This document shows positions 8,846 to 49,589 of a DNA stretch of 64,000 nt, in pieces. Below the pieces are notes generated by a model. The model saw nothing but the letters and a program-made list of their open reading frames with translations, was not told the DNA's origin and did no database searches. The stretch comes from a virus. The stretch lies in the UHGV virus genome UHGV-1370141, one strand, 5' to 3'. Positions within the stretch are counted from its first letter, which is position 1; each line of letters starts with the position of its first letter. A program made the translations under genes and the position numbers.

Positions 8846-8871
8846 CTCTCACCTAAGTAATATATATCTGA
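8846..8871 (-). promoter_or_regulatory. Conserved 26-bp promoter-like motif, copy 1 of 4
   Basis: Minus-strand TCAGATATATATTACTTAGGTGAGAG about 45 nt upstream of 8339..8800 start. Confidence 0.4.
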
Positions 8872-8892
8872 GATTATTTTTAATGTTAGATA

Positions 8893-8927
8893 ACAAAAAA
8901 TAAAAGGTGGGGTTTACACCCCACCGT
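8893..8927 (-). terminator. Intrinsic terminator
   Basis: Hairpin GGTGGGG-tttaca-CCCCACC then T-run on minus strand after 8930..9508. Confidence 0.6.
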
Positions 8928-8929
8928 TG

Positions 8930-9508
8930 TTAAACGTCGAATCGATACTGACGAGAATTGATTAAGAATTCTGTATTCAGTTCAATCCATTCGAGCAGGT
9001 CACCCAGTTGTAAACGACTTGGGTTTTCTAACTCGATAGTGGCAACCGGATAAGAGTTTACTAATTCCGTAATTGCCTCAATACCTTCTTGCGTTCCATC
9101 GTCTTCTAAGGTAATTATAAACGGCATATCGGTACGCTCTGCGTTCGGGTTATACAGACTGACTTTCGTTGCCTGTACAAACGCCGAGTAATCGTCACGC
9201 ATGATTCTAATGTCAGGCGCTAACGTTACCCAGAGGTGTTGTCCCGGTTGGAGTTTACGTTTTGCGTAGTTTAAGAACGGATTAGCCGGTAAGTTTTCCA
9301 AACCACTGCAAATGTTCCGTAAATGAATTCCTCGCGGGTCTTTATAGTCCACAGTGAAAATTCCTACCGGTTCACGGTCTGCCTGTTTTACCAGAAAGGC
9401 CAATACCGTGTCCGCTCTCTCTGGTAAGGAAAGCTCTATTCCCTCAAGCTCCCCGTCGACGAGGTTTTCCAACCAAACGTCTTTTCTCATTTCTATTAAT
9501 CGGTACAC
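8930..9508 (-). CDS. Hypothetical protein
   Basis: 192 aa; GTG start with AGAGGTGG RBS. Confidence 0.5.
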   Translation of the reverse strand: MYRLIEMRKDVWLENLVDGELEGIELSLPERADTVLAFLVKQADREPVGIFTVDYKDPRGIHLRNICSGLENLPANPFLNYAKRKLQPGQHLWVTLAPDIRIMRDDYSAFVQATKVSLYNPNAERTDMPFIITLEDDGTQEGIEAITELVNSYPVATIELENPSRLQLGDLLEWIELNTEFLINSRQYRFDV

Positions 9509-9520
9509 GGTACCACCTCT

Positions 9521-10294
9521 TTAGTTATTGAGATTTACATCTGCGATAAACAACAATTGTTTGCCGTGTTGCTGTACTTCTTTCCAACCTAATTTCATAG
9601 CAGTATCAACAACATCAACCATGCTGTAACGGGACATCAAAGATTCTGATTTTGTTCCTGACATTAAGTAAAGTGGCTCATTAGGGCTACGGTCACGTGC
9701 GTCAGGAAGTTCACGTACGACTGCCGAGCCTTCGGGTACGGTAACAAGATGAATCACGGTAAATGGCCTCTTGTGCGTTAAATAGATACGAAATCCAACG
9801 TGTTCAGATTCATGAAAGATTTTCCTCACAACCACATCTTTCAGTGTTGTTTGAACATCAGCCCCAGGCAATATCATGGATTCGCGTGAAACGAAACAAC
9901 GACTATTTTCAATTGTGGAGAAATAATTACGTAGCGGTAAACTGGCGTTATTATCGCGCAGTCTTTTGCTTAAACGGTCGTAATCCATTTCTTTAACTTC
10001 TTCTAACCATGCGTAGGCACGTTCAACGTAGTACAGACCAACAGCGCGATAAGTTAATACTTTGCCTGTGGCCACTTGCCAGAGCTTAACGGTTAGCGTA
10101 TCAGGTTTATATCGCCGATATTCTCCGCGTGTATAAGTGATACGTTGATAAAGACCCACGTCTTCTGTTGGCGCGGATTCGACCGATTGTAATTGCAGCG
10201 TTCGATGAAATCTATCGTCTAGCAACAATGAAGCCAGCGAACCTTTAACCATATACGGTTCAGATTTAAAGAGGTCGTCTAAATGAATTTTCAT
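9521..10294 (-). CDS. Hypothetical protein, paralog family with conserved C-terminal GW..V...G.QLLF.A motif
   Basis: 257 aa; C-terminus LGWKEVQQHGKQLLFIADV. Confidence 0.55.
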   Translation of the reverse strand: MKIHLDDLFKSEPYMVKGSLASLLLDDRFHRTLQLQSVESAPTEDVGLYQRITYTRGEYRRYKPDTLTVKLWQVATGKVLTYRAVGLYYVERAYAWLEEVKEMDYDRLSKRLRDNNASLPLRNYFSTIENSRCFVSRESMILPGADVQTTLKDVVVRKIFHESEHVGFRIYLTHKRPFTVIHLVTVPEGSAVVRELPDARDRSPNEPLYLMSGTKSESLMSRYSMVDVVDTAMKLGWKEVQQHGKQLLFIADVNLNN

Positions 10295-10361
10295 TTCTAT
10301 TTCCTTCTTAACAAAAGCCGCGACTAAAGCGCGGCAGTTAGAGAAAGTGTATTTTCACTTA

Positions 10362-11513
10362 TTAAAGGTCAGCAACAAACAGCAGCTGATTGCCGTACGG
10401 TTCGACAGATTTCCAACCGTAATCTTTACCGATCGTCGTTAGATGACCGGTATTTAACTTTTTGTCAACCATTCGCAGACGCATCATTAGCGTATTGGAT
10501 TCTGCCGCATCGAGTAATAACGCAGGTTCTTTTTCAGTGCGGTCATCTGCTTTCGGGAAGAAACTGTAATATTGACTTTTGGGCAGATCGATTGACAACG
10601 TATAATTTTTCTTTGTAACGAATAACGCCATCCCTTCGAAATTGCAATCGAAGCGATATTCCCAACCCGCTTCTGCTAAAACGTCCTTTAGCATCTCCAT
10701 GACTTTAAGCTGGTTAACGCTAGGCAGTCGGTAGATTGCAAGACCACTTGGGAAAATGCGTATACCGTCGACGACACTATCGGTGGTTTCGTCAATAAGT
10801 TCAGGATAGCGTTGTGAGAAAATGTGATCGCTCTTGCTTTTCTCTTCGACGTCACGAATGAATTGGGCTAATTCGTCTTTTAAGGCAGACATTTGATTTT
10901 CTCCTTTGTCTTCAATAATCAGGTGGGGTTCGCCGCTAACTAAAATGTGGTAAACAATGTCGTCGGTAGAACGGTAAGTGAGCTTGATAGCTTTATCACT
11001 TAACATTTCGTAGCGGAAGAAGCTTTCGTACCAGCTTGAGCCGAAATCGTTTTGTGTGAGTTCCTGCTCAACTTTGATGGTTTTTGCTTCAAAGCCAATT
11101 AACCCGCTTAATAACGCGAGTTCTGGTTTAGTTAAAATAGCTGCGCCGTGAAAGGACACTTGTTCAAGCTGAAAACATAAATTACTGACTTTACCACTTG
11201 GGAAGACTTTAAACATAATCTTCCGGTTGCTACTCTTTTCTCTAACAACGAGTTTACGGTAATTTAGTCCAGAATTTGTGTAAGCCGTGAACTGGTAACC
11301 TTCAATTTCTTCGTCGTAAGTACAGACATCGACAGGCGCGATAATCTCATCGTATTCACTCAGTACACAGCAGCCCAAGTTATAACCAAACAACTCGCGT
11401 TGTAATGAAGACTCGATGGTTAAGCTTGGCAGTGGCCATGTCCGATTATAGCATCTGTCCATCAGTTCTTTTAGGATCTTGACATGCCCTGGTTTAGAAA
11501 TAATATTTCGCAT
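10362..11513 (-). CDS. Hypothetical protein, same paralog family
   Basis: 383 aa; C-terminus YGWKSVEPYGNQLLFVADL. Confidence 0.55.
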   Translation of the reverse strand: MRNIISKPGHVKILKELMDRCYNRTWPLPSLTIESSLQRELFGYNLGCCVLSEYDEIIAPVDVCTYDEEIEGYQFTAYTNSGLNYRKLVVREKSSNRKIMFKVFPSGKVSNLCFQLEQVSFHGAAILTKPELALLSGLIGFEAKTIKVEQELTQNDFGSSWYESFFRYEMLSDKAIKLTYRSTDDIVYHILVSGEPHLIIEDKGENQMSALKDELAQFIRDVEEKSKSDHIFSQRYPELIDETTDSVVDGIRIFPSGLAIYRLPSVNQLKVMEMLKDVLAEAGWEYRFDCNFEGMALFVTKKNYTLSIDLPKSQYYSFFPKADDRTEKEPALLLDAAESNTLMMRLRMVDKKLNTGHLTTIGKDYGWKSVEPYGNQLLFVADL

Positions 11514-11541
11514 TTTTACTCTCCTTTAGGGTTTTCGTTAC

Positions 11542-12081: not shown

Positions 12082-12108
12082 GATATTTTCTCCTTTAGGT
12101 TTTTTTAC

Positions 12109-12948: not shown

Positions 12949-13024
12949 AATGCCCCCTACCCCCTACCGGTATCCCGAGTAGCAGAATAAAGGGACAATC
13001 TGTAAATTTTAAGTAATACTATGA

Positions 13025-13102
13025 TTACCGTGGTAGATAAGGTGAATAGTGACGGAAGAGTCTCACTACCTCTTCGATACCGTCTTTCTGTTCAGCGAAC
13101 AT
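13025..13102 (-). CDS. Possible 25-aa micro-ORF
   Basis: Own translation MFAEQKDGIEEVVRLFRHYSPYLPR; GGAGG 5 nt before ATG; lies between promoter-like motif and 12109..12948. Confidence 0.2.
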   Translation of the reverse strand: MFAEQKDGIEEVVRLFRHYSPYLPR

Positions 13103-13180
13103 GGTAGCCTCCACTATTGTTAGTATCCGTTTCGAAAAGAAACGTGCCCATAGGGGTTGAAGTGCGAGTTCAACCCCTAT

Positions 13181-13203
13181 TCACTTAAGTAAAATATATC
13201 TGA
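13181..13203 (-). promoter_or_regulatory. Conserved promoter-like motif, copy 2 of 4 (diverged)
   Basis: Minus strand TCAGATATATTTTACTTAAGTGA in the divergent intergenic region; a 10-bp hairpin (13151-13180) lies adjacent. Confidence 0.35.
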
Positions 13204-13231
13204 ATCTATTTCCGATCTAAGGAACGACCTA

Positions 13232-14197
13232 ATGGAGAAATCCAGCGTTGATTTTTTCTCAATTGGTATCGTCGCGGAAGACAAACCCCGTGGTACAGAT
13301 CGGGTAAAAGTGATACCAATTGAAACCAACTTTGCGAACCCTACCGTTGTACAATCGGTTTCCTCAACCGCTGAAAAGGTACACGATACTGGGGGTGCTA
13401 CTGACAACCTAACGATTAAAACAGGTAACACGATTACCGCAAAGTGGTGGAAGTTTAATTCCAACCGAATTAATTCCCCAGACGTTAAGCGAGAAGATTA
13501 CGTTATCTTGCTACGTCTAGGGCAAACCGATATTTATTTTTGGATTGATCTGAATTTTGCTAACGTTAAGCGATTAGAAGATGCGGTTTACGCGTGGTCT
13601 GCTGACCCTGAAAACCAGATGGCGGATGACTTGTCGAATGCGTATGTGTTAAACGTCTCAACGATTGACAAACACGTTACCCTAAGAACAAGTATGGTGA
13701 ACGGGGAGAAAGCGGCGTGGTTATTCCAATTCGATAACGCTAACGGGTCGTGGCAGTGCGTTGACCATAAAGGGAATAAGTATTACATTAACTCGGTGGA
13801 AGACGATTTAGGTTTTGAGAACGCGATGCTTTCGAAAGTGAACATCAACAAAGAAGATGCATTCATTTACGCAAAACGTTCGATTAACCTGGAAACGAAA
13901 ACGATTAATGAGAAATGCGAAGTTCGGAATACCGAAGCGTCGAAATCGGTTACCTTTAAAACAGAAACCTGGCTAACTGAAGCTTCTGGTTCAACAACGT
14001 ATAAAACGCCGAACTTCAAGCAAGAAGGTAATGAAGCGATGTTCACCGGTAATTTGGAAGTTGCTAAGAACTTCAAATACGGTGGTACGGGCGAAGGCGT
14101 GGGTATCTTTACGGTTAAGGATGCGGTTATTTCCGGTATTACCTTCAGCGTACACATCCATGACGGCGTCCATGGCCCAACTTCAGGCCCACGCTGA
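13232..14197 (+). CDS. Hypothetical protein (first gene of the rightward block)
   Basis: 321 aa; AAGGA RBS 8 nt before ATG. Confidence 0.6.
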   Translation: MEKSSVDFFSIGIVAEDKPRGTDRVKVIPIETNFANPTVVQSVSSTAEKVHDTGGATDNLTIKTGNTITAKWWKFNSNRINSPDVKREDYVILLRLGQTDIYFWIDLNFANVKRLEDAVYAWSADPENQMADDLSNAYVLNVSTIDKHVTLRTSMVNGEKAAWLFQFDNANGSWQCVDHKGNKYYINSVEDDLGFENAMLSKVNINKEDAFIYAKRSINLETKTINEKCEVRNTEASKSVTFKTETWLTEASGSTTYKTPNFKQEGNEAMFTGNLEVAKNFKYGGTGEGVGIFTVKDAVISGITFSVHIHDGVHGPTSGPR

Positions 14198-14315
14198 TTT
14201 CCCCTTTTTCTTACGTTGGTATTATATATTGTGACCTGACGTTGGTAAGCTTCTTATCAACACTTTTCTTAAACCTCATCGTTTAGTTAAGCAGGCCACT
14301 TTTTTCGCGCACTCA

Positions 14316-14335
14316 CTCCTCCCTTCGGGGAGGAG
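14316..14335 (+). promoter_or_regulatory. Stable UUCG-tetraloop RNA hairpin in 5' leader
   Basis: CTCCTCCC-ttcg-GGGAGGAG perfect 8-bp stem, no trailing T-run, 60 nt before 14397 start. Confidence 0.3.
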
Positions 14336-15985: not shown

Positions 15986-18900
15986 ATGGCTGTCGTCCTA
16001 GACCCACACTTCAAAGAACCGGGGAATAAAATAACCGGTGAAGCGGTCGCCGTCATTGGTACGAAGTACCGAATGTTGGTACCTGCCCACGCCCCTTTTT
16101 TCACCACATCCCTGGTGGTCAAGAGCGGCGGCAAAATACTGACCTTAGGCGACGATTACGTTATTACACACCCGTACGAGACCGGTATGTTGCGCACAGC
16201 CTATCTCGTGCACGGGATGATTTGGATTGTTAACGACAAATACAAATCGAATTTCACGGTAGATTACCACGCCGTAGGTTGCGGTGAGGCAACCCAAGAA
16301 CAGATTACCGCAGAACGCGAACTCAATAAAGATAAATACCCGTCTGCGTGTCAATGGGATACCGTTATCGGCGACGTTTACTTTCCACCGGTCGACATTC
16401 AGTTCGACTGGGAAAACTGGAAAGGTGAACTGGAATTAATGCAGACCATTGCAGGCTTAGGTGATTCGTTAGGTAACGTGGTGAATCGGGTAGACCCGAT
16501 TGCACGTAACACGTTAGATATCGAGCATCGCGCTAATGGTACGGTTAGCACGTCTGAACAGTACGCAACGTACGACAACAAAGGTGGGTATACTTACAAT
16601 ACCGCTAAACGTCGTTTCTCCGTTACGTACAAAACCACCACGTTAAATGAATATTCCCTGTCGATGAAATACCGTATTCCGGCTATTTTTCCGAATATGG
16701 GGAGTATTAATCCGAACGAACAAATCGATTGGATGTTGTGCTATGCGAATGGTGGCGCAAGTATCCTTCGTCTCCAATTAAAACAACGTAAAATCAGCCT
16801 ACGACTGACGGTCGCGTTAGGCAGTGGTTCGACCGATTATGATTATACGTTAATCAACGGTTTGACCGATGACGAATTAAAAGGCGAATTAACGTTTAGC
16901 GTTGTCCGTCAACCGGGTAACGGTGTATACGTTATCGAGGTGACGACTAACAAACAGTCCATGGACTATACGTTTAACGTCGACACACCGCCAGACGAAT
17001 TCTCAGCAGGTTACAGCAAAACGGATGTTGCGAAGTGGCTGAAATACAAAACCAACGTTAACTTAAACTGGTGGGCGGCTGAAAACGATTACGCTCAATT
17101 CCTTGCGTTACCTGGTGCGCCAGAAGCAGACGTAAGTAACGACGTTTATCAGTTAATCGTTAAGTACCATCAGTTAGTAGAGCAACTCTATCGCAACGCA
17201 CCTGCACACGAACACGTTACACGTAAGGACAACCCGCACAGCGACACGTGGGGACCGATTCGTGCGTTAGAATTAAACGGCATTGCGTCCGACGCAGCGT
17301 TAACCTACGGGAAAACCAAGCGACAGTTAACGGACTACGTTAACGCTAAATACCCAACACAGGCAACGCTAACCACCCAGAGAAAACTGCTTCGAGAATC
17401 GGCGAGCAAGAACGTTAACGGCACGATTACAGCGCTCCCTGGCTTTACGTCATTTACTACTGAAGTCGACCCAGTGTCGATGTCGAAATACGTTAGTCGG
17501 CAATTTAGCGAATATTACGTTTCGAACGGAATTGGATACCACGGAGCACTTCGCTACGCTGGAACTAAAAACGGGTTCTCATGTTATTTTAACGGTGTTC
17601 CCGCTGATTTACAAGACATCGACTTTATTGTAACGGGTACAAGAGTTGCAGGCGATAATTCAGCGATCGGCGTGGCTCAGATGCGATTCTACGAGAATCC
17701 GGGTACCGAGTCCGGTAAGTATGTTGAGCTGGAAGGTTCGCTCTCCGGAGATCGCCTTTCCATCCAAGTATCGCTTGGCGGATATGGTGTCGGTACAGAC
17801 CCACAAGTCCGTTATATCTCCAAAGCACCTGATCCGGTGGTGCCTGCTGGCGATTTCACATTACGTTTCCAGATGAAACGAACCGGTAATCTTTTTGACG
17901 TTATCGTTACGGTGAACGGGAAAACCTACAGTGCGCGTGTCAATTTCGTCAATATGGATGCCGAGTTAGAAGCGCTGGAAAACCGTTATCACTTCAAGAG
18001 CTTTATTAATAACGTTGCAGATAGGGTCAGTATCCAATCTGCTCACAACAGAAACTACGTTACCATCAAAAAGGCTCCTGACGTTGTTGACGAAAGACGT
18101 TTAGGCGCTCAATTCGTTGTTGATCCGAAGTCCATTAAGTTTATCGGTCAAGGTTCTACCGATGTTCATGCGGGTAACAACCCTGTTACGTTACAGGCAG
18201 GCGATAACCAGCTTGTGCTATACCCCGATGACCGTGGACTGTTGTGGCGTGGTAAGAAACTCTTAGACCCCACTACGGTAGCGCCGTATTTGCCGGGTAA
18301 TACCGCAGGCGGTACAGGTCTGTTCTACGGTGCATCTACAGCTACAGTGGAACTTACTGGTAGCGGGATTAAAGCATCGCCGTTTGTCGCAACGTTTATC
18401 CTTCCGGTTGCCGAAGACGTCACGACGTTAGCCTGCTGGCAGTTAACGGATGAATTCGGTACGGCTGAAAACCTTGCAGCTACACCCGCGTTAATTGAAA
18501 AACTGGACGCAGAGTTTACCGGTAAGTTAGTTGCTGCCAAGTCGTACATCAACGACATGCAGCTTACCAGTTCGATTACTATCGACAAAATTACCTTTGG
18601 TTTAGGTAACGTTGCGAATACCCCGGACCTCGATTTGCCGATTTCTGTTGCACAACAGACTGAGTTAGACAAATACTCACCGAAGGTTCACCAACACCCG
18701 TCTTCTGTGTTCGGTGTTGAAAACGCAGACACCACGAAACGGGGTCTGATTAAATTCGGTCTGGAAGTGGATGATACCACTTTAGCACTCGATGGTAGTG
18801 TGGTGATGGCGCAGACTTCCCAGATTGAAAATTTGGAGAATACCGTCGGCGGGGTTGACTCGGGTGCGCGCGTTGACATTATTCGCTTTGGTAAGTCCGG

Positions 18901-20311: not shown

Positions 20312-20324
20312 GGAGAATTTTTTG

Positions 20325-24506: not shown

Positions 24507-24542
24507 GACAGGCTGCCTGCGGGCAGTTGTGTGTCCGTAGGT

Positions 24543-24581
24543 AACCCCTCCCTGTAATGGGGAGGGGTATCCATTTTATTT
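24543..24581 (+). terminator. Intrinsic terminator/attenuator between fiber genes
   Basis: Hairpin ACCCCTCCC-tgtaat-GGGGAGGGGT followed by TTTTATTT. Confidence 0.55.
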
Positions 24582-24601
24582 AAAAAGTAGGAGTCTTTAC
24601 G

Positions 24602-34003: not shown

Positions 34004-34025
34004 ATAATTAATGGAGTCACCTGCA

Positions 34026-34949
34026 ATGGCGACCAATGCGGAACCAAAATTATCAGATCAGTTATTTGACAATCCAACAATATTAGCCGTTATTACTACA
34101 TCCAAATGTAATCTGGACTGTAGTTTCTGCGGCGGAGCCTATTACATGAATCGTGAAGATTCTTCTCGAGAGTTTCAACGTGACCGAATTATGGAGGCGT
34201 TAGAAGCTAACCCAACAATCACCGAGATTCAATGGACGGGTGGTGAGCCTTTGTTAGCCACTCGTAAAATTGAGGCGTTTGTTGACGAGTTAAAAGTAAT
34301 TCGTCCAGAGCTCAAACATCAGTTATATACCAACGGTTTAAAGATGCGTAAAACGCATCTCCCGTTGTTAAAACAATTTGATAATGTGTATGTTAGCATC
34401 GACGGGTTTGAGTTGTCTGAACGCCCTTTTAAGCGTTTTATTAACGATGGTTGCTACGAAGCTTTAGAAGTAATGCATGAGCTTGAAAATGTTCATACAT
34501 GGGCCGTTTTAACTCGAGAACAGTTGGGTAACAAACGGTGGCATGAAGACATTATTGAGCTTCATAATGCGATCTATCACTACGGTTATCGTACCATGAC
34601 GTTGCTGTTAGACGCGAATATGCCAAAACCGTTATCTCCCGATCACGTTATGAACTTTATTTACGGGTATTTTAGAATTCAGGAAAATATAGAAAGACTG
34701 AATGTTTCCAACTCGAAAAGGTGTGACTATGTCGTAAGCAAAGTTTTTGATGGTGGGTGTAACGTATGCAGCAATAGTTTATGGTTAAGAGCAGATGGAA
34801 CCGAATATCAGTTGCAAAATGCCCCGAGATTATTAGAATCGGGATGTAACCAATTAGCTTGTTCCATCGGGTTAGAAGCCTACGAGTATATTCGACGAGT
34901 GGTTATGGCCAACCGTAATAGTGGAGTATTAAATGAACCAAGAAAATAA
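34026..34949 (+). CDS. Radical SAM enzyme (paralog B)
   Basis: ATG at 34026 has GGAG RBS (track ATG 34011 has none); CNLDCSFCGG, GGEPLL; identical DNA tracts shared with paralog A. Confidence 0.75.
   Translation: MATNAEPKLSDQLFDNPTILAVITTSKCNLDCSFCGGAYYMNREDSSREFQRDRIMEALEANPTITEIQWTGGEPLLATRKIEAFVDELKVIRPELKHQLYTNGLKMRKTHLPLLKQFDNVYVSIDGFELSERPFKRFINDGCYEALEVMHELENVHTWAVLTREQLGNKRWHEDIIELHNAIYHYGYRTMTLLLDANMPKPLSPDHVMNFIYGYFRIQENIERLNVSNSKRCDYVVSKVFDGGCNVCSNSLWLRADGTEYQLQNAPRLLESGCNQLACSIGLEAYEYIRRVVMANRNSGVLNEPRK
34620..34702 (+). repeat. 83-nt tract identical to 32102..32184
   Basis: See paired repeat. Confidence 0.7.
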
Positions 34950-42769: not shown

Positions 42770-42816
42770 AAAAGGGAAAGAAAATTAATTCCGCTATAGA
42801 CCGAAGCCTATAGCGG
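42770..42816 (-). terminator. Intrinsic terminator
   Basis: Perfect 9-bp hairpin CCGCTATAG-accgaagc-CTATAGCGG next to stop of 42824..43255, T-rich downstream on minus strand. Confidence 0.5.
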
Positions 42817-42823: not shown

Positions 42824-43255
42824 TTAGCGAACGTTGTGTGCTAAGTACATTAGCGTACGGGTGTCGATATCACGAGAAGTTTGTGACATTTGGTTCAGTA
42901 GAGTGCTGGCAGTAGGGTCGTTGTAAACACGACTTAACCACTCGTCAACCATTTCTGGTACAGTGTCGACTAAAAGCGGATAGTTAAGATTTTCCAGTGT
43001 GTATTCAACGAATTCGTGCATCAGATTCTGGTCACGATGCATAGTGTCACCTAACTCACCTACAGGGTACTCTTCACGAGGACGTTTACCCCAGCTACAG
43101 ATGTGCATGTAGTTAGTATTCACAATTTCTTGATATTCTTCTAACTTAACTAAATCGAAGTCAGTATTTGGACGACAGAAACCTGCTAAAACGCCTAAAG
43201 CAATCGGATTGTTACGAATGTAGTTACGGATATCATCTTTTAATAGGAAAAACAT
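42824..43255 (-). CDS. Hypothetical protein, paralog of 44521..44952
   Basis: LKDDIRNYIRNNPIALGVLAGF vs LKLELRDYIRKYPASIPVLASL. Confidence 0.55.
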   Translation of the reverse strand: MFFLLKDDIRNYIRNNPIALGVLAGFCRPNTDFDLVKLEEYQEIVNTNYMHICSWGKRPREEYPVGELGDTMHRDQNLMHEFVEYTLENLNYPLLVDTVPEMVDEWLSRVYNDPTASTLLNQMSQTSRDIDTRTLMYLAHNVR

Positions 43256-43271
43256 TTTAATGCTCCTTTAG

Positions 43272-43308
43272 GTAAATACAATAATAGAGGGGTGGATTAC
43301 CACCCCTT
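43272..43308 (-). terminator. Intrinsic terminator
   Basis: Hairpin AGGGGTGG-atta-CCACCCCT then T-rich on minus strand. Confidence 0.5.
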
Positions 43309-43331: not shown

Positions 43332-44498
43332 TTAACGACGTTTTTGACAATTAGGGCAGTTGCAACCTACGCCAGAAGATATTTCTCTAAAGTACGCGTC
43401 GAGTAAGTGCTCGTTATTATTAAGAAAACGAACTGACCACAAGTCACGCAGATGAGTTTTTAACTTTCCAATAATACCGGGTTCATAGTTGAGTAGAATG
43501 GTAAGTGCGTTGTCTGTGTAAGTCCACTGACGGACTTTCTCAGGAAACCAACGAGTGATATCACGCATAAACGTATCGGCATCTTCTTTCCCAATAGCAG
43601 TGATTGTCAGAAGACGTAGACGGTTGTTAACAAACTCATCAATGAGACTATGAATTTCTTCTTCAAAAGCAATGTTCCACCATTTCCATTTAAAGGTGAG
43701 TTTTTCGCCCTCGAGTTTGGTCTCTACCTTGGTAGAATAGAATGCTGTCAAAGTGTCATTAATCGCTTCGGCATCTGGACCAGTGTATGTAAAGGCTTTC
43801 AACACATCGGACTCTTCACGCGGTTGCTCCCCTTCTTCGAGTTGGTTAAGAAAAATTTTCTTTGTTAACTTACGCATACAGATGTTCAATTGATTAATAA
43901 CAACAGGGTCATTATCAACAATCACTGTTAAAGTATCGCCAACATAATTAGACTGGCGAATTTTCTCCTTGTGTTCGTGAACAACTATACGCATGAATTC
44001 GTCCGCTTCACCTTTTCCGATACCTTGAAACGAAATAAGACGAACGGTGTCGTTATCGATCATCTCAGCGACAGAACGTACTTCTTCCATGAGGTTACGA
44101 TCGTCTTTCTTCAATCGAACGACGAGTTTGCTGTTATCCCAGTAAATGCCTAAATCGTCGGGATAGAAGGTCTCTAACGCCTCTTTAATATCCTTAATCT
44201 TTTCGCCTTCGTACCAGAGGACGTGCGGTTCGTCTTTCTGCTGCTCTTCGACTTTCGGTTGTTCAGTCTCGGCCGTTTCTACCGGGTTGAGCAACTCACC
44301 GATTTCCACCGCGATAGTGTCGCAAAGATAATCGTTGCAGTGAGTCCAGTAGAACACGATGCTTTCATCATTGACCTGCTCTACGCGGAAATGTACACCT
44401 TTATCCAGGAATATACGATAAAGTTGATCGAGTAACTGTGCTTCAGGAACCGGACGGATTTCGGTTTTAACGAGCGGTGTAATCTCGATATTATACAT
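43332..44498 (-). CDS. Hypothetical protein with internally repeated domain and C-terminal CxCPxC
   Basis: Two similar segments (...GKGEADEFMR... / ...GKEDADTFMR...) also related to 48200..49042; ends GVGCNCPNCQKRR. Confidence 0.55.
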   Translation of the reverse strand: MYNIEITPLVKTEIRPVPEAQLLDQLYRIFLDKGVHFRVEQVNDESIVFYWTHCNDYLCDTIAVEIGELLNPVETAETEQPKVEEQQKDEPHVLWYEGEKIKDIKEALETFYPDDLGIYWDNSKLVVRLKKDDRNLMEEVRSVAEMIDNDTVRLISFQGIGKGEADEFMRIVVHEHKEKIRQSNYVGDTLTVIVDNDPVVINQLNICMRKLTKKIFLNQLEEGEQPREESDVLKAFTYTGPDAEAINDTLTAFYSTKVETKLEGEKLTFKWKWWNIAFEEEIHSLIDEFVNNRLRLLTITAIGKEDADTFMRDITRWFPEKVRQWTYTDNALTILLNYEPGIIGKLKTHLRDLWSVRFLNNNEHLLDAYFREISSGVGCNCPNCQKRR

Positions 44499-44520
44499 GT
44501 CAATTTTCCTTTTTGGTAAA

Positions 44521-44952
44521 TTATTCGTAGTTGTGCTTAAGGAACTCTAAAGCACGTTGGTCATTGGTTAATGCTACTGCCGACATTTTCTTTAAGGCTT
44601 GACGACAGTAAGCGTCACTCACAATACGTTGTTGCCAAGCATTGACAATTTCCGTAACGGTTTCTCCTTCTACAGCCGTATTGAGTTTATCGATAAAGTG
44701 ACGTCCCATCAGATACGCAACTGCGTAGTCCGTGAACATCTCTGTACCGAAATCACCGTCTGGGTAGTCAGCACGTTTCCGCACTGACATATCGGTAACG
44801 ATTTGATACGACGACTTCACCACTTCGTGGAATTTTTCTACCGTTAAGGTGTTAAGGTCCATACCCGATAAAGAGAGTGAAGCCAGTACCGGAATACTGG
44901 CTGGGTATTTACGAATGTAATCACGCAACTCTAATTTCAGTTCTTTGCTCAT
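44521..44952 (-). CDS. Hypothetical protein, paralog of 42824..43255
   Basis: ATG at 44952 with GGTGAG RBS (track GTG 44964). Confidence 0.5.
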   Translation of the reverse strand: MSKELKLELRDYIRKYPASIPVLASLSLSGMDLNTLTVEKFHEVVKSSYQIVTDMSVRKRADYPDGDFGTEMFTDYAVAYLMGRHFIDKLNTAVEGETVTEIVNAWQQRIVSDAYCRQALKKMSAVALTNDQRALEFLKHNYE

Positions 44953-44957
44953 TGAAC

Positions 44958-45431
44958 TCACCACTTATATTCAAACAAATAGCTGGAGAAAACATCGGCG
45001 AAATTTTCTAAATCATCGGTGTCAATCAAATCCAATCCTTTATTCAGAGATCCTAGCCATGTACCGTCGTAGCAAACTGCCATTACAGAATGGCGAACTT
45101 TTAGTTTACCGTCATTAGTAAATGAACGTTCACCGTTCTCGCCCGCCTCGTAGCGTTCCCCATTGTCAGCCAAGATAACCAGTTTGTCTAACGGGATGAA
45201 AGCGTCCATTACAACAAAGTCATAACGTGCAGTGACATGATTGTCGGTTACAGTTAAACGTTCAATAATGTAAAGGTTTGAATCACGTTTCAGCTCTTTG
45301 CTTTTTCTCCATCCATTCTTAATCAGCGAAAAAGCATCGCTTCTGCCAGTAAACAGATCTTTAATTTTATAGGTTTTTTCTACTGAATGGAAAGCGGCAT
45401 GAACGTTGCTGTTGATTTCTAAGCTAAACAT
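44958..45431 (-). CDS. Hypothetical protein
   Basis: 157-aa ORF. Confidence 0.55.
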   Translation of the reverse strand: MFSLEINSNVHAAFHSVEKTYKIKDLFTGRSDAFSLIKNGWRKSKELKRDSNLYIIERLTVTDNHVTARYDFVVMDAFIPLDKLVILADNGERYEAGENGERSFTNDGKLKVRHSVMAVCYDGTWLGSLNKGLDLIDTDDLENFADVFSSYLFEYKW

Positions 45432-45479
45432 ATTCTATTCCTTATATACAAGTCGAAGAGTTAATGTGTTAATTTTCGT

Positions 45480-45974
45480 TTAGAGATGTTTTTCGATAAC
45501 TTCCGAAACTAATTCGTAAAGGTCATCGTCGCTGCACACTTCTACACTAATTCCGATATCGATACTACGACTACGGAACCCAACTTTGAGCGATTTACCG
45601 AACTCGGTTTGAAAGGCTTTATAGAGGATGTTCTTATCTTCTTCTGTGAGGCGAACAGGTAGTCTAACGGTGAACTTGTAATGTTCTTTCGAAACAAGTT
45701 CGTTGGAATAATTGAGTCGTTTGGCTCCACGCGTTCCGACAATCTGTGTTACCAGCTTAAACATTTCCTCGTCGGTATACGCTGTTGCGCTATAACCGAT
45801 ATCGATAGTGTTTCTGCGGAAACCTGCGCAGAACAAAGCACCGAACTGTTCACGGAATTCTTTGTACAGGACGTCTTTTTCTACGTCCAGTAATCCGTAA
45901 CCCAAGTCAACAGTAAATTTGTATTTTTCTTTGTCAACCAATTCATTAGTGTAATCAAGTCTAGTGAAGTTCAT
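45480..45974 (-). CDS. Hypothetical protein made of two tandem ~80-aa repeats
   Basis: LDYTNELVDKEKYKFTVDL...FRRNTIDIGYS vs LNYSNELVSKEHYKFTVRL...FRSRSIDIGIS. Confidence 0.55.
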   Translation of the reverse strand: MNFTRLDYTNELVDKEKYKFTVDLGYGLLDVEKDVLYKEFREQFGALFCAGFRRNTIDIGYSATAYTDEEMFKLVTQIVGTRGAKRLNYSNELVSKEHYKFTVRLPVRLTEEDKNILYKAFQTEFGKSLKVGFRSRSIDIGISVEVCSDDDLYELVSEVIEKHL

Positions 45975-46019
45975 GGTATATGCTCCTAAAATGGTTTTAG
46001 TTAAGTGAGAGCTTTCGTA

Positions 46020-46045
46020 CTCTCACCTAAGTAATATATATCTGA
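46020..46045 (-). promoter_or_regulatory. Conserved 26-bp promoter-like motif, copy 3 of 4
   Basis: Minus strand TCAGATATATATTACTTAGGTGAGAG about 50 nt upstream of 45480..45974. Confidence 0.4.
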
Positions 46046-46056
46046 AAATATTTTAA

Positions 46057-46338
46057 TTAAAACCCAGCAATAAAACTGCCTAATGAAAGACGCTGTAAGT
46101 ATTTTGGCTTACGTGCCAGGTAACAGTTCTTAGGATTACCTATCGCCATCTGTGCAACCGCACGTTCTAAACGCGGTGCTTCTAAGATAGCACGATAGTT
46201 CCCTTCGTAATGCATTAACCATGCACACTCTTCAACAAAACGTTTTGCTTCTCGGTATTCTAACGTACGAATACGTTTCTTACCACGATACAAAACCACA
46301 TCACCATTACTACGAAATACAACCGTTTCACGATTCAT
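46057..46338 (-). CDS. Hypothetical protein
   Basis: Track gives GTG at 46395; internal ATG at 46338 reduces overlap; start uncertain. Confidence 0.4.
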   Translation of the reverse strand: MNRETVVFRSNGDVVLYRGKKRIRTLEYREAKRFVEECAWLMHYEGNYRAILEAPRLERAVAQMAIGNPKNCYLARKPKYLQRLSLGSFIAGF

Positions 46339-46624
46339 TGATTTTACCCCATAATTCTCGCCGTAAAACTTGTTTATACATATCGACCTGAGCACGACAA
46401 TCTTTTGTGGCCTTCTCTAGTATTAAAAAACCAGCTTCTTTTGGCAATTTCTCCTCGCAAATGTACTCGGTAATAGCACAAAGCTTGTAATAAAGCTCTA
46501 GCTGTTCCCTGAGCGATTTTTCCTGCACTTTAATTAATTCATCTTGCTTAGCAATAACCTTTTCATTAACTTCGCAGACAGGACATTTCTTACGTTTAAA
46601 TAGCCGAATTAGTTTAAAAACCAT
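46328..46624 (-). CDS. Hypothetical protein (CPVC motif)
   Basis: ATG at 46624 with GGTGG RBS (track TTG 46642). Confidence 0.45.
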   Translation of the reverse strand: MVFKLIRLFKRKKCPVCEVNEKVIAKQDELIKVQEKSLREQLELYYKLCAITEYICEEKLPKEAGFLILEKATKDCRAQVDMYKQVLRRELWGKINES

Positions 46625-46922
46625 TATCGCCACCGTTTGCAATCCAGGTTGCTACACGAACGTGTGCACTGTGAAAGTTAGAGACTAAGAGTATTACACC
46701 ACCTAACGTACGTGGAACGCGTAAGGCTTCGAAACGACGACAGTAAGAACGTACACAATACTCAGAACCTAAGATAACGATTTCGCAGTATTCTGAACGA
46801 ATCGGCAGTAGTTGAGAAACGAGTTTATCACACGTTTCTTTGTTGTCTTCTAATAACCCGCCACTGAGAATATAGTTGACGATGTTCTCAGGTGCCGATG
46901 TGTTTGCGATTTTATTTTCCAT
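46614..46922 (-). CDS. Hypothetical protein
   Basis: 102 aa; AGGAG RBS. Confidence 0.5.
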   Translation of the reverse strand: MENKIANTSAPENIVNYILSGGLLEDNKETCDKLVSQLLPIRSEYCEIVILGSEYCVRSYCRRFEALRVPRTLGGVILLVSNFHSAHVRVATWIANGGDNGF

Positions 46923-46924
46923 CG

Positions 46925-47314
46925 TTAAACTCCTATAGTGATCTCCGTGATGTGCATTCTTCGCATCTCACGAGTCATTCTGTCTATTGCCCGTTGACAT
47001 TCGAATAAATTGTCGTAGTATTTCTGGGCAGTAACGTTGAATATAATCCGACCTTCTTTCAATTGTTTAGCAACGACTTTTGTAGTTTCCGATTCAAACA
47101 GCAGACCACCTTCCCTGCCAATCTTAACTAAAACGTCACGAATAGCAACGTTTATAAGCTCGCCATTTGGGGAAACCACGATTTCCGTATACCAGTCGCC
47201 CTCACTAACGATACGTTGTACCCTTTCACCGCATAGCCAGTTTTTGACTTTCCCATTGACGAATAATTGGGCCTTTAGTAACAAACGTCTTTTTAAGTAA
47301 GATAAACGCATCAT
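46925..47314 (-). CDS. Hypothetical protein
   Basis: ATG at 47314 with AAGGTG RBS (track GTG 47323). Confidence 0.5.
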   Translation of the reverse strand: MMRLSYLKRRLLLKAQLFVNGKVKNWLCGERVQRIVSEGDWYTEIVVSPNGELINVAIRDVLVKIGREGGLLFESETTKVVAKQLKEGRIIFNVTAQKYYDNLFECQRAIDRMTREMRRMHITEITIGV

Positions 47315-47357
47315 GCAAATCACCTTATCTCCCTCGGGAAAACCGAGGGAGTGCTAA

Positions 47358-47639
47358 TCACAGTTTCTCTTCTATTGTATCGATTCGAACTAACGCATCG
47401 TGACTGACTTTACGTGCGTGTCCAATCGTACTACCTAAAGCTTTTGTTGTTGGGTCTAAGGTATTCAGACGGTGATACTGATAATCGATATCTCGTATAC
47501 AACGCGCCTGTTGTTTTACCATCCGAATTAATTGTCGTTTGGTCTGACGATTGTTACTAAGTTCCTGTCGTAATCGCGTGTTTTCTTTATAAAGCTCCTG
47601 TTGACGTGTGTTAATTAAACCCAACAACCAATCTAACAT
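47358..47639 (-). CDS. Hypothetical coiled-coil protein
   Basis: 93 aa; GGGGGT RBS. Confidence 0.5.
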   Translation of the reverse strand: MLDWLLGLINTRQQELYKENTRLRQELSNNRQTKRQLIRMVKQQARCIRDIDYQYHRLNTLDPTTKALGSTIGHARKVSHDALVRIDTIEEKL

Positions 47640-47641
47640 TT

Positions 47642-48157
47642 TTACCCCCTGTGCAAGAAAATGCGGTTAGTGTTTTCGAATTTCGGTTCTGTCCACTCTA
47701 GTTCCCAGTAAGCCTGGTTAATATCGCGAGACGTGAGTTTCAAATTCGAAACACCGGGGATATCGATCTGTTGCAGTAAATTAATAATCGTCACCAGCTC
47801 TTTACGAGGACGGTTCCAGATAACTTCAAGATACTCTTTCAGACGTTCTGGGTAAGCAACGGGGCGAATATAGACTAGCCCAGAAGGATACTCAATTGCT
47901 GAGGGTGTTCTTGGCACTAACCAAACCCAGTCTTTTAATAGCGGTCCTGGGTGATAATTCGAGAGTTGGGTAAGCGCGTTCGCGACGGAACAACAGCGAA
48001 AATACATGATGTCCCAGTCTTTTTCGAAACAATTACGTGCGACCAGGACCTTTAGCTTATCGATAGGTTTACCGTCAATCGTAGTAACACCTGGCTGATT
48101 AGCCAAGATTTGACGTTCACGTTTGGTATAAAGATTCATGTTGATTGTTACAGACAT
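47642..48157 (-). CDS. Hypothetical protein
   Basis: 171 aa; AAGGAG RBS. Confidence 0.55.
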   Translation of the reverse strand: MSVTINMNLYTKRERQILANQPGVTTIDGKPIDKLKVLVARNCFEKDWDIMYFRCCSVANALTQLSNYHPGPLLKDWVWLVPRTPSAIEYPSGLVYIRPVAYPERLKEYLEVIWNRPRKELVTIINLLQQIDIPGVSNLKLTSRDINQAYWELEWTEPKFENTNRIFLHRG

Positions 48158-48199
48158 TTAATGCTCCTTTAGGTAAATAGTGGGGTAATTAAGCCTTCG

Positions 48200-49042
48200 T
48201 TATTTAAGATTCCGAACTTCTCTCATCTCGTTACAAAATCTATCAAACAGCTGGGCGTATTCGCCAACGTGAGCTTCTAGCTGTCCAAAAAAGTGGCGTG
48301 AAAGTCGTTCGCTGATTTCTTTTTCGTATTTCTTGAGAACGTGTTTAAAATATTCACCGTCTCTCTTAATTTTCTGCGCAAGGGGTTCCAGAACTTTAAG
48401 AACCCATGGTTTGTTTGGGATCAAGAGATTCAGGTTACCTTCAAGATATTTGCTTTGATAAATTATAAATAGATGGTGTTCGTGTTCATCTTTCACTGCG
48501 CGAATAAACTCGGCAGCATCGGCCTCGCTAATATCCTCAACTGTAAATAGCAGAATATTTTCTTTCTCTATGTCATTCAATAGGTTATTTAAAAAAGCGC
48601 GATAAGTAGCACCTTCATAGTTCACTTTAAGCACGTTGTTTTCAACCAGATAAGTGAATTTGTCGTTGTAAAAAAGGTATAATATCGAACCGATTTTACC
48701 TGCCTGTTTGGGGGTAAGTGGAATCTCGTCTGTGAAGTAAGCGACGTCTTTCGCAGTTGGCTTGTCTTTTAGCCTACAAGTCATTTGATCCGGAATTTCT
48801 GGATCTTTAGGCGTCTCAACAGCCCGTACTAAAATATCCATAACCGCACTAATGAGCTTGTTAGGGAAATCGACCTCGCCTTCTACCCAGAAAATGTTAA
48901 ACGCTTCTGATTTAACTTTATAGTAAAACGTGTATGTGTTTTGTAGCTCAGTGATTTCTTTAATTTGATCCTCAGTAGGGATAGGGGAAATTTTAAACTT
49001 GTTGATAACCTTTTCTTCTTCGGTGAGTTCGAACTGAAACAT
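48200..49042 (-). CDS. Hypothetical protein (domain shared with 43332..44498)
   Basis: 280 aa; AAGGAGG RBS; EADAAEFIRAVKDEHEHHL segment. Confidence 0.55.
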   Translation of the reverse strand: MFQFELTEEEKVINKFKISPIPTEDQIKEITELQNTYTFYYKVKSEAFNIFWVEGEVDFPNKLISAVMDILVRAVETPKDPEIPDQMTCRLKDKPTAKDVAYFTDEIPLTPKQAGKIGSILYLFYNDKFTYLVENNVLKVNYEGATYRAFLNNLLNDIEKENILLFTVEDISEADAAEFIRAVKDEHEHHLFIIYQSKYLEGNLNLLIPNKPWVLKVLEPLAQKIKRDGEYFKHVLKKYEKEISERLSRHFFGQLEAHVGEYAQLFDRFCNEMREVRNLK

Positions 49043-49053
49043 GCTACTCCTCC

Positions 49054-49497
49054 TTAAATCATTGCTGGGAATTCGAAATCAATCTTATTTACGATCCCGT
49101 AATCTTCTTTTAGTTGAATGTTTAATGTTCCCTGAAATAACTCAAGAGAACCGATGAAGAACGCTGTGTAGCAGTTTCCACGAACAGAAAAGGCAAGATC
49201 CAATCCCCTTAAACAGCGTTTTAAGGTATCGTGTTCTTCTTTACTACCGAACAACTGGAAATTGATAACGGTAATCTGTTTGTTAATGATTGCCATTAAC
49301 CAATTTTTAATTCTTTTCGTGGTTATACTCTCTTTAAAATCGTTAGCTTCTGGTAGCCAACTAACGTGAACAAACGGAGCGGCATAATCCACGCGAACCT
49401 TTTGCTGCCAACGTACTTGCATCAAACCACGAATACGATTTGCTAACGTTTCAGAATCACAAAGTAGCATAATGCCATTAGTAGTATTTGGTTTCAT
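49054..49497 (-). CDS. Hypothetical protein
   Basis: 147 aa; AAGGAAGGA RBS. Confidence 0.55.
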   Translation of the reverse strand: MKPNTTNGIMLLCDSETLANRIRGLMQVRWQQKVRVDYAAPFVHVSWLPEANDFKESITTKRIKNWLMAIINKQITVINFQLFGSKEEHDTLKRCLRGLDLAFSVRGNCYTAFFIGSLELFQGTLNIQLKEDYGIVNKIDFEFPAMI

Positions 49498-49563
49498 AAT
49501 TGTCCTTCCTTCTTAATGTACTCTTCAACTCAGCTATAACTAGTGGAGTGAACGTAATTTTCA

Positions 49564-49589
49564 CTCTCCCCTAGGTAATATATATCTGA
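49564..49589 (-). promoter_or_regulatory. Conserved 26-bp promoter-like motif, copy 4 of 4
   Basis: Minus strand TCAGATATATATTACCTAGGGGAGAG about 65 nt upstream of 49054..49497. Confidence 0.4.

What the first reader, a model, noticed from the sequence alone, without database searches (positions are those of the whole stretch)
8846..49589. Conserved 26-bp promoter-like motif repeated four times upstream of leftward genes
The minus-strand sequence TCAGATATATATTAC(T/C)TAGG(T/G)GAGAG occurs at 8846-8871, 46020-46045 and 49564-49589, with a diverged copy at 13181-13203, always in an intergenic gap 40-75 nt upstream of a minus-strand start. Length, conservation and placement suggest a phage-specific promoter class (phage-encoded sigma factor, modified host RNA polymerase or phage RNA polymerase) rather than a sigma-70 site.
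Basis: seen in the sequence. Interest (0 to 1): 0.55.

Follow-up and report, generated by a model that had tools for sequence, protein, structure and literature searches.

The report
Giant-phage early promoters with 5' hairpins
The repeated 26-bp motif is the known type of early promoter that phiKZ/SPN3US-like giant phages use with the RNA polymerase they inject, found here in an uncultured human-gut phage and followed each time by a small hairpin at the predicted transcript start: a correct reading, but of an ordinary, already described kind of element.

Summary
Three near-identical 26-mers and one diverged copy lie on the minus strand. They are the only four sites in 64 kb that match the motif, all intergenic and co-oriented with the genes downstream. 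The window is a piece of a ~225-kb SPN3US-like jumbo phage from a human-gut metagenome. The motif, AGATATATATTAC-(6 nt)-G, fits the published early-promoter consensus of phiKZ-related phages: AR9 AAATATATATTAT-(6N)-G+1, phiKZ TATATTAC, plus 201phi2-1, OBP and N1M2. These promoters are read by the injected virion multisubunit RNA polymerase. The same 19-mer occurs in SPN3US, phiEaH2 and about ten metagenomic jumbo-phage contigs, always on one strand per genome and upstream of small hypothetical genes. No sigma-70-like site overlaps any copy. One addition: each copy is followed by a hairpin that starts at the predicted +1. Compensatory changes and G-U pairs support it as an RNA structure. It is absent from most phiKZ early promoters checked, and most likely stabilises the 5' end of the mRNA. 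Verdict: a new member of a known kind, of modest interest.

The parts
8844..8900 (-). Early promoter copy 1. The extended element includes an A/T-rich upstream part. The 26-mer core is at 8846-8871 and TATATTAC at 8857-8864. The predicted +1 is the G at 8850.
   Evidence: Exact match; PWM score 74.4; sequence read; +1 placed by the rule 'element-(6N)-G+1' from PMC5312081.
8831..8850 (-). Hairpin at the predicted 5' end of transcript 1 (GAGAGTTA-agat-TAACTCTT).
   Evidence: Folds; family-wide statistics.
8896..8925 (-). Intrinsic-terminator-like hairpin plus T run, ending the upstream operon just before promoter 1.
   Evidence: stem 8925-8906, tail TTTTATTTTT.
8339..8800 (-). First gene downstream of copy 1: 153 aa, signal-peptide-like N-terminus, unknown function. 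The predicted leader is 50 nt.
   Evidence: PHROG of unknown function.
13176..13232 (-). Diverged promoter copy 4 (CAGATATATTTTACTTAAGTGA at 13181-13202). The predicted +1 is the G at 13182. It lies in the divergent gap next to the plus-strand baseplate gene 13232-14197.
   Evidence: (score 11.0). The site is conserved at the same position in four relatives.
13150..13180 (-). 12-bp hairpin after copy 4 (ATAGGGGTTGAA-ctcgcac-TTCAACCCCTAT).
   Evidence: Across 5 orthologous sequences, 3 of 12 pairs show compensatory double changes and 96.7% of cells are paired; slid controls pair at 20-45%.
13025..13102 (-). 25-codon ORF, the first reading frame after copy 4, with a GGAGG ribosome-binding site.
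   Evidence: The peptide is conserved (MFAEQKDGIEEVVRLFRHYSPYLPR vs MSTEKKSGLDEVIELFKRYNPAIPR) despite many nucleotide differences.
46018..46074 (-). Early promoter copy 2. The core is at 46020-46045 and the predicted +1 is the G at 46024. The upstream A/T-rich part overlaps the stop of gene 46057-46395, and there is no terminator in front.
   Evidence: score 73.4.
46005..46026 (-). Hairpin at the predicted 5' end of transcript 2 (GTGAGAGT-acgaaa-GCTCTCAC). The part from +1 spans 46007-46024.
   Evidence: In orthologues the U-G pair becomes U-A (L019, L025).
45480..45974 (-). First gene downstream of copy 2: 164 aa, no family match. The predicted leader is 50 nt.
42791..42816 (-). Terminator-like hairpin (CCGCTATAG...CTATAGCGG plus a T-rich tail). 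It closes the block of small genes that starts at copy 2, just before the virion structural genes.
   Evidence: Sequence read.
49562..49618 (-). Early promoter copy 3. The core is at 49564-49589 and the predicted +1 is the G at 49568. The upstream element is replaced by the T run of the preceding terminator.
   Evidence: score 40.5.
49545..49568 (-). Hairpin at the predicted 5' end of transcript 3 (GAGAGTGAA...TTCACTCC).
49593..49631 (-). Strong intrinsic-terminator-like hairpin (13 bp) plus T run, immediately upstream of copy 3.
49054..49497 (-). First gene downstream of copy 3: 147 aa, unknown function. The predicted leader is 71 nt.

Best explanation
The four sites are early promoters of an SPN3US-like (phiKZ-related, probably nucleus-forming) jumbo phage. 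They are most likely recognised by the multisubunit virion RNA polymerase that is injected with the DNA. The recognition element is about 45 bp long: an A/T-rich stretch around -35 to -22, the near-invariant AGATATATATTAC at about -19 to -7, a 6-nt spacer YTAGGT, and an initiating G. Transcription would start at the G of GAGAG (window positions 8850, 46024, 49568 and 13182, minus strand) and run leftward into operons of small genes of unknown function, presumably host-takeover genes. Terminators directly upstream of copies 1 and 3 insulate these units from the preceding genes. The first 18-31 nt of each predicted transcript fold into a hairpin that begins at or next to +1. I infer that this is a 5'-terminal stem-loop that protects the early mRNAs from 5'-end-dependent decay. 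SHOWN here: the sequence, statistics, orientation and conservation of the motif; its match to the published consensus; and selection on the hairpin as a structure. INFERRED: which polymerase reads it, the start site, the early timing, and the role of the hairpin.
For: (1) Phage identity. The giant virion-protein paralogues, baseplate, radical-SAM and SbcC-like genes are syntenic with SPN3US at about 105-172 kb. The window is 99.99% identical to a 224,874-bp human-gut metagenome contig.
(2) Polymerase. A contig 96% identical to the window encodes a 77%-identical homologue of an SPN3US 'RNA polymerase beta subunit', which matches PHROG 3148 with E=0.
(3) Motif match. AR9 has AAATATATATTAT-(6N)-G+1, and the TSS lies 6 nt downstream of the element in phiKZ and phiR1-37 (PMC5312081). 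phiKZ has TATATTAC, 201phi2-1 TTTRARR_BTATATTACDWHDGTG, and N1M2 TTTCARRYAKATATTATYWAAGTGWA (PMC7058600). A review states that such motifs, centred near -10, are the early promoters of every RNAP-encoding jumbo phage examined (PMC7598289).
(4) Specificity. There are only 4 sites in the window, all on the minus strand and all intergenic. SPN3US has 9 sites, all on one strand, all upstream of genes, and one lies ahead of an RNAP-beta gene. IMG/VR holds 62 matches in 19 contigs, and each of the 14 contigs with two or more matches carries them all on one strand. In 57 of 59 unique instances a Shine-Dalgarno site and start codon follow, with the median start at +53.
(5) No sigma-70 pattern overlaps any copy.
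(6) Hairpin. The mean z-score is -2.4, and 39 of 59 hairpins start exactly at the predicted +1. Pairing falls to about chance at -1 to -6. Native arms fold to -7.3 kcal/mol against -3.6 for chimeric arms. The copy-4 orthologues show compensatory changes. 56 of 362 pairs are G-U, and the sense strand is more stable than the antisense.
Against: No transcript data exist for this phage or, in the library searched, for any SPN3US-like phage, so the start site, timing and polymerase all rest on analogy. The window itself carries no RNA polymerase gene. Copy 4 departs from the core consensus at several positions, and in AR9 a single deviation can inactivate a predicted early promoter (PMC5312081), so copy 4 may be weak or silent. 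Copy 3 lacks the upstream A/T-rich element and has G instead of T at -1. The instances used for the hairpin statistics are partly orthologous and so not independent. The stabiliser role of the hairpin is untested.
Confidence: 0.85

Rival explanations
1. These are host sigma-70 RNA polymerase early promoters. On this reading the A/T-rich TATATT acts as a -10 box and the upstream A-tract as an UP element, as in T4 or T5 early promoters.
For: The core contains TATATT/TATTAC, which resembles a -10 hexamer, and an A/T-rich stretch lies upstream. Wicke et al. describe the phiKZ motif as an 'extended -10 box' in shape (PMC8244752).
Against: The consensus scan finds no -35/-10 pair at any of the four sites, and sigma-70-like matches in these regions occur at chance level. 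The invariant positions (CAGATA, YTAGGTGAGAG) are not sigma-70 determinants. In phiKZ-related phages, early transcription has been shown to be independent of host RNAP (PMC7598289, PMC5312081).
Confidence: 0.04
2. These are promoters of a different phage class: middle or late promoters read by the non-virion RNAP, or sites that need an additional phage factor.
For: Temporal class was not measured. Some downstream blocks run on towards structural genes, for example beyond 42,800.
Against: Published nvRNAP motifs are quite different: phiKZ middle has a TACT/A-rich element near -22, phiKZ late has TATG at the TSS, and AR9 late has AACA-(6N)-TA/G (PMC7598289, PMC8244752). The motif here matches the early class at 13 of 13 core positions, counting the purine at position 2 and the pyrimidine at position 13 as matches, and has the same 6-nt spacing to G. 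The genes immediately downstream are small and of unknown function, and a terminator separates them from the structural genes.
Confidence: 0.06
3. The hairpin is the functional core. Either it acts as a DNA hairpin promoter element, as in N4 virion RNAP promoters, or it is a leader attenuator/terminator that produces short RNAs. On this reading the A/T-rich box matters less.
For: The inverted repeat is nearly universal. The SPN3US site orthologous to copy 1 is followed by a second hairpin plus T run inside its leader. Premature termination in the 5' UTR occurs in phiKZ and 201phi2-1 (PMC10914365, PMC11512511).
Against: The hairpin lies downstream of the predicted +1, whereas the N4 hairpin lies upstream. 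Loops vary from 3 to 11 nt and stems from 5 to 12 bp. 15% of pairs are G-U, and the sense strand is favoured over the antisense, which points to RNA and not to a DNA cruciform. Only 9 of 43 hairpins are followed by a T-rich tail. Among phiKZ TATATTAC sites, which match the published early-promoter core, 6 of 7 lack a hairpin.
Confidence: 0.05

Closest known systems
Virion-RNAP early promoters of phiKZ-related jumbo phages (phiKZ, 201phi2-1, OBP, N1M2, AR9, phiR1-37)
   Same: Both share the core A(A/G)ATATATATTA(C/T), the 6-nt spacer to a conserved G, and a T/A-rich element further upstream. Placement is also the same: intergenic, co-oriented with the genes, ahead of small genes of unknown function, and often just after a terminator (PMC5312081, PMC7058600, PMC8244752, PMC11512511).
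   Different: The flanks are lineage-specific (CAG at the 5' side, YTAGGTGAGAG at the 3' side). A 5' hairpin follows almost every copy here but only 1 of 7 phiKZ sites checked. There are fewer sites per genome than the ~32 reported for phiKZ: the position weight matrix finds 9 in SPN3US, and the relaxed 21-mer finds 3-8 per contig in the contigs with three or more matches.
The same sites in Salmonella phage SPN3US (Seoulvirus) and Erwinia phage phiEaH2
   Same: The 19-mer CAGATATATATTACYTAGG is identical and is followed by the same kind of hairpin. Some sites are syntenic: SPN3US 165,686 corresponds to copy 1 and 113,985 to the copy 2/3 region.
   Different: The flanking genes are only about 40-70% identical. 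Copy 4 is a diverged variant that is consensus-like in other relatives. The window comes from an uncultured human-gut phage.
5'-terminal stabilising stem-loops of mRNAs (E. coli ompA leader, T7 gene 10 leader); recalled from my own knowledge, not tested here
   Same: A stem begins within 0-2 nt of the 5' end of the transcript. The sequence is free to vary as long as pairing is kept.
   Different: No half-life data exist here, and the hairpin is tied to one promoter class of a phage RNA polymerase.
Coliphage N4 virion RNAP hairpin promoters (PMC4496689 was listed but not read; the features given are from my own knowledge)
   Same: An injected virion RNA polymerase reads early promoters that are associated with an inverted repeat.
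   Different: N4 uses a single-subunit enzyme and a DNA hairpin upstream of +1 with a 3-nt loop. Here the enzyme is multisubunit, and the repeat lies downstream of the predicted +1 and behaves like RNA.
PeSL cassettes of T4-type phages (PMC2839356, PMC4122927)
   Same: Both are repeated composite units of terminator and early promoter, sitting in regions where small genes of unknown function come and go.
   Different: PeSLs use host sigma-70 promoters, and their role in recombination is documented. Here I saw only gene gain or loss next to one copy, with no repeat at the other end of the indel.

Membership tests
phiKZ-related jumbo-phage vRNAP early promoter | Extended, highly conserved A/T-rich element of about 10-13 nt (TATATTAC / AAATATATATTAT) | tested here: met
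   AGATATATATTAC is present in copies 1-3; copy 4 has AGATATATTTTAC, one change. Consensus sequences are from PMC5312081 and PMC7058600.
phiKZ-related jumbo-phage vRNAP early promoter | Conserved initiating purine (G) 6 nt downstream of the element | tested here: met
   G occupies that position in 4 of 4 window copies and in 59 of 59 unique instances from relatives, as asserted in the script.
phiKZ-related jumbo-phage vRNAP early promoter | Primary transcript 5' ends map there early in infection, independently of host RNAP and of new protein synthesis | not testable with these tools
   No RNA data are available. Supplements giving TSS coordinates are not held.
phiKZ-related jumbo-phage vRNAP early promoter | The phage encodes a virion multisubunit RNA polymerase | tested here: met
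   The window does not contain one. A contig 96% identical to the window (IMGVR 3300014543_000002) and two further relatives encode a 76-77% identical homologue of the SPN3US 1401-aa RNAP beta-like protein; the copy from the 96%-identical contig (L049) matches PHROG 3148 at E=0. Pfam finds nothing.
phiKZ-related jumbo-phage vRNAP early promoter | Intergenic, co-oriented with downstream operons, absent from late structural blocks | tested here: met
   There is no site in the plus-strand structural block 13,232-37,440.
Sigma-70 promoter | TTGACA-like and TATAAT-like hexamers 16-18 bp apart | tested here: not met
   No listed match overlaps any of the four sites.
N4-type virion RNAP hairpin promoter | Short DNA hairpin (5-7 bp stem, 3-nt loop) upstream of +1, within the recognition element | tested here: not met
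   The hairpin starts at the predicted +1, loops are 3-11 nt, and G-U pairs and strand asymmetry are present. The N4 features themselves are recalled from my own knowledge.
T7-like single-subunit RNAP promoter | A conserved 23-bp element from -17 to +6, read by a phage single-subunit RNAP | tested here: inconclusive
   The length is similar and the 3' end is GGNGAGAG-like. However, no single-subunit RNAP is annotated in SPN3US, and the A/T-rich core matches the jumbo-phage consensus instead. The whole parent genome was not available to scan.
T4-type PeSL recombination cassette | Repeated promoter/stem-loop units that flank the endpoints of gene insertions, deletions or replacements | tested here: inconclusive
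   One 828-nt indel begins right after the copy-3 leader when compared with L019, but no repeat lies at its other end.

The most novel reading that the evidence does not exclude
The hairpin at +1 may be an obligatory, lineage-specific part of a composite promoter-leader cassette in SPN3US-like phages, and not just a stabiliser. It could be needed for promoter escape by the virion RNA polymerase. Alternatively it could be an RNA tag that marks early transcripts for handling, such as export from the early-infection vesicle, binding by a phage factor, or timed shut-off. On this reading the cassette as a whole moves early genes around, as PeSLs do.
Probability: 0.12. Interest if true: 0.55.

Novelty: new member of a known kind. 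Interest (0 to 1): 0.3.

Why it matters
The result gives a ready operon map for the early genes of an uncultured human-gut jumbo phage and its relatives. The four predicted start sites define candidate host-takeover operons made of small proteins of unknown function. It also shows that the early-promoter grammar (A/T-rich 13-mer, 6-nt spacer, G) is shared from Bacillus AR9 through Pseudomonas phiKZ to enterobacterial SPN3US-like phages, which is useful for annotation and for engineering. The conserved 5' hairpin is a small, testable addition: SPN3US can be cultured and carries the identical element.

Tried and rejected
- Rfam scan of the whole window: no family reaches the gathering score.
- tRNA scan: none found.
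- Near-identity DNA search of 44,000-52,000 against GenBank phages: only a 260-bp gp38-adhesin segment matches, so the phage is not in that collection.
- Pfam on the RNAP homologue: no hit. PHROGs was needed instead.
- Papers: Ceyssens 2014 (the phiKZ transcription study) and the OBP genome paper are not held, at least under the PMC ids I tried. Supplements with TSS tables are not held. No paper in the library describes the SPN3US-type motif or its hairpin.
- Bare TATATTAC is not enriched in the window (4 found against 2.7 expected). Only the extended motif is specific.
- A CGACYAT element seen in many SPN3US-type leaders is not enriched genome-wide and is absent from the four window leaders, so I dropped it.
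- Terminator or attenuator reading of the hairpin: only 9 of 43 have a T-rich tail.
- Pairing that extends upstream of +1: close to chance, so I found no support for an earlier start site or a DNA cruciform.
Full report
OBSERVATION. The 26-mer TCAGATATATATTACYTAGGKGAGAG occurs exactly at 8846-8871, 46020-46045 and 49564-49589 on the minus strand; no shuffle gave a match. The repeat finder groups these three with a fourth, diverged copy at 13177-13212 (family D5). A relaxed IUPAC pattern recovers exactly these four sites against 0.05 expected. A position weight matrix built only from instances in other phages scores these four sites at 74, 73, 40 and 11. The next best window position scores -18, and the best of 20 shuffles -1.4. 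All four sites are on the minus strand and none lies inside a gene. The bare octamer TATATTAC is not enriched by itself, so it is the extended element that is specific. The gaps to the next start codon are 45, 45 and 66 nt for copies 1-3. For copy 4 the gap is 78 nt, to a 25-codon ORF.

WHAT THE WINDOW IS. The three giant plus-strand ORFs (15986-29785) are paralogous virion proteins of the SPN3US/phiKZ type. Their best relatives are Erwinia and Salmonella jumbo phages at 41-50% amino-acid identity. Gene order runs tail protein, small genes, virion paralogues, endolysin, radical-SAM, giant proteins, baseplate, SbcC-like. This mirrors SPN3US from about 105 to 172 kb in reverse. The window is 99.99% identical to a 224,874-bp human-gut metagenome contig and 96% identical to an IMG/VR contig. 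That IMG/VR contig and two other relatives encode a 76-77% identical homologue of an SPN3US RNA polymerase beta-like protein; the copy from the 96%-identical contig was scanned and matches PHROG 3148 at E=0. No close DNA relative exists among GenBank phages.

WHAT THE MOTIF IS. In phiKZ-related jumbo phages, early genes are transcribed by a multisubunit RNA polymerase carried in the virion. Every such phage examined has a conserved A/T-rich motif centred near -10 upstream of its early operons (PMC7598289). Published consensus sequences are:
- AR9: AAATATATATTAT-(6N)-G+1. In phiKZ and phiR1-37 the start site likewise lies 6 nt after the element (PMC5312081).
- phiKZ: TATATTAC.
- 201phi2-1: TTTRARR_BTATATTACDWHDGTG.
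- N1M2: TTTCARRYAKATATTATYWAAGTGWA (the last three from PMC7058600, Table 2).

The window motif, ATTT-CAGATATATATTAC-YTAGGT-GAGAG, lines up with all of these without gaps. In the first 50 kb of phiKZ, the seven TATATTAC sites have the same TTT-N6-TATATTAC spacing and the same placement. By the 6N-G rule, the predicted start sites are the G residues at 8850, 46024, 49568 and 13182.

DISTRIBUTION ELSEWHERE. The exact 19-mer CAGATATATATTACYTAGG occurs in 33 IMG/VR loci from at least 12 jumbo-phage contigs, including SPN3US (240,413 bp) and phiEaH2 (243,050 bp). A slightly relaxed 21-mer gives 62 matches in 19 contigs. In each of the 14 contigs with two or more matches, all matches lie on one strand. 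In the complete SPN3US genome the matrix finds 9 sites, all on the plus strand and all upstream of annotated genes. Most of those genes are hypothetical; one is an HTH protein, and one site lies ahead of the gene pair that includes an RNAP beta gene. Of 59 unique instances, 57 are followed by a Shine-Dalgarno site and a start codon, with the median start at +53. In the window, the downstream genes are small and have no known function. Terminator-like hairpins with T runs sit directly upstream of copies 1 and 3, and another closes the copy-2 gene block before the structural genes. No sigma-70-type match overlaps any copy.

THE HAIRPIN. Every window copy, and most copies elsewhere, is followed at once by an inverted repeat whose inner sequence differs from site to site.
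- Over 59 unique instances, the first 34 nt of the predicted transcript fold with a mean z-score of -2.4. In 49 of them z is below -1, and in 39 the helix begins exactly at the predicted +1.
- Pairing of the bases just upstream (-1 to -6) with the bases beyond the 3' arm is near chance. The helix boundary therefore coincides with the predicted start of the RNA.
- Joining the 5' arm of one site to the 3' arm of another halves the stability, from -7.3 to -3.6 kcal/mol. Each 3' arm is thus matched to its own 5' arm.
- At copy 4, five orthologous sequences keep 96.7% of cells paired. Three of the 12 pairs change on both sides (GC to AU, CG to UA) while the loop drifts freely; slid controls pair at only 20-45%.
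- G-U pairs make up 15% of pairs, and the sense strand folds better than the antisense. This fits an RNA structure better than a DNA cruciform.
- Only 9 of 43 hairpins have a T-rich tail, so as a class they are not terminators.
- In phiKZ, 6 of 7 early-type sites lack a hairpin. The hairpin is therefore a feature of the SPN3US-like lineage and not of the whole promoter family.

MECHANISM. Best-supported reading: the injected virion RNA polymerase binds the ~45-bp element, initiates at the G six bases after the A/T-rich core, and transcribes leftward operons of early genes. This step is inferred from homology and context. The nascent 5' end then folds into a stem-loop. By analogy with the 5' stem-loops of ompA and T7 gene 10 mRNAs (my own knowledge, untested here), this would shield the transcript from 5'-end-dependent decay. 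Copy 4 is diverged in the core but is conserved, with its hairpin, at the same position in four relatives, and one of them has the canonical TATATTAC. It may be a weaker promoter, since AR9 data show that single deviations can abolish activity (PMC5312081).

RIVALS. The simple hexamer scan does not support a host sigma-70 promoter, and such a promoter would conflict with the host-independent transcription documented for this phage group. A middle or late (nvRNAP) promoter is unlikely because the published motifs of those classes are entirely different. An N4-like DNA hairpin promoter or a leader attenuator is not favoured, given the position of the hairpin, its variable geometry, its G-U content and the usual lack of a T tail.

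NOVELTY AND VERDICT. The element belongs to a promoter class known since the phiKZ and AR9 studies, and reported to be predictable bioinformatically in every RNAP-encoding jumbo phage. This is a new member of that class, in an uncultured gut phage. The associated 5' hairpin is not described in any paper I could search. It is a modest, testable refinement and not a new kind of system.

Noticed in passing
window 6511-6539, 11509-11530, 43248-43276, 48149-48177 (minus strand): There is a second repeat family, TTTACCTAAAGGAGnnTTAAAATG. It is a conserved ribosome-binding site plus start-codon context at the starts of four leftward genes (families D6 and D8). Similar CTAAAGGAG contexts precede early genes in SPN3US-type leaders.
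   Followed up: no
window 13025-13102 (minus strand): A 25-codon ORF directly after promoter copy 4 is conserved at the peptide level in relatives despite many nucleotide changes, and it is deleted in one relative (L055). It is probably a real micro-protein gene.
   Followed up: partly
window about 12949-13020 (minus strand): The roughly 70 nt just upstream of the 279-aa gene (…TCCCTTTATTCTGCTACTCGGGATACCGGTAGGGGGTAGGGGGCATTATG) are almost invariant across five phages whose neighbouring sequence differs by 4-20%. This could be a regulatory element or a second promoter.
   Followed up: no
window 51392-51652 (gene 51394-52032, minus strand): A gp38-type tail-fibre adhesin segment is 82-96% identical at the DNA level to RB49/JSE/phi1-type T-even phages (Krischvirus), while the rest of the region has no close DNA relative. 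This points to recent exchange of a host-range module between a jumbo phage and T4-like phages.
   Followed up: no
window 31525-32394 vs 34043-34912; also 31235-31266 vs 32628-32659: A diverged tandem duplication (73-82% identity) joins the paralogous genes 31508-32419 and 34011-34949. In addition, a perfect 32-nt repeat is shared by two small plus-strand genes (families D2-D4, D7, D12).
   Followed up: no
window 49529/49530 and 48200-49042, compared with L019: A relative at 89% identity carries an extra 828-nt gene inserted immediately after the copy-3 leader and lacks the 280-aa gene 48200-49042. The early operon is therefore a hot spot of gene gain and loss.
   Followed up: partly
L031 8431-8520 / SPN3US 165,686-165,780: The SPN3US site orthologous to copy 1 has a second, GC-rich hairpin with a T run inside its leader (GGCTACCTTCGGGTAGCC-TATTCTTTTTT). 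It could give a short RNA of roughly 65 nt or attenuate the operon. The window copy lacks it.
   Followed up: no
L064 (phiKZ 1-50,000): Seven TATATTAC sites, all on the plus strand and all intergenic, share the upstream TTT-N6 spacing. Only the one ahead of the nuclear-shell gene PHIKZ054 is followed by a stable hairpin.
   Followed up: partly
L004, L021, L022, L012, L015, L036 and others (leaders of SPN3US-type early transcripts): A conserved (T/C)GAC(T/C)AT(T/C)AA… element lies about 10 nt upstream of the Shine-Dalgarno site in many early leaders. It is not enriched genome-wide and is absent from the four window leaders.
   Followed up: partly
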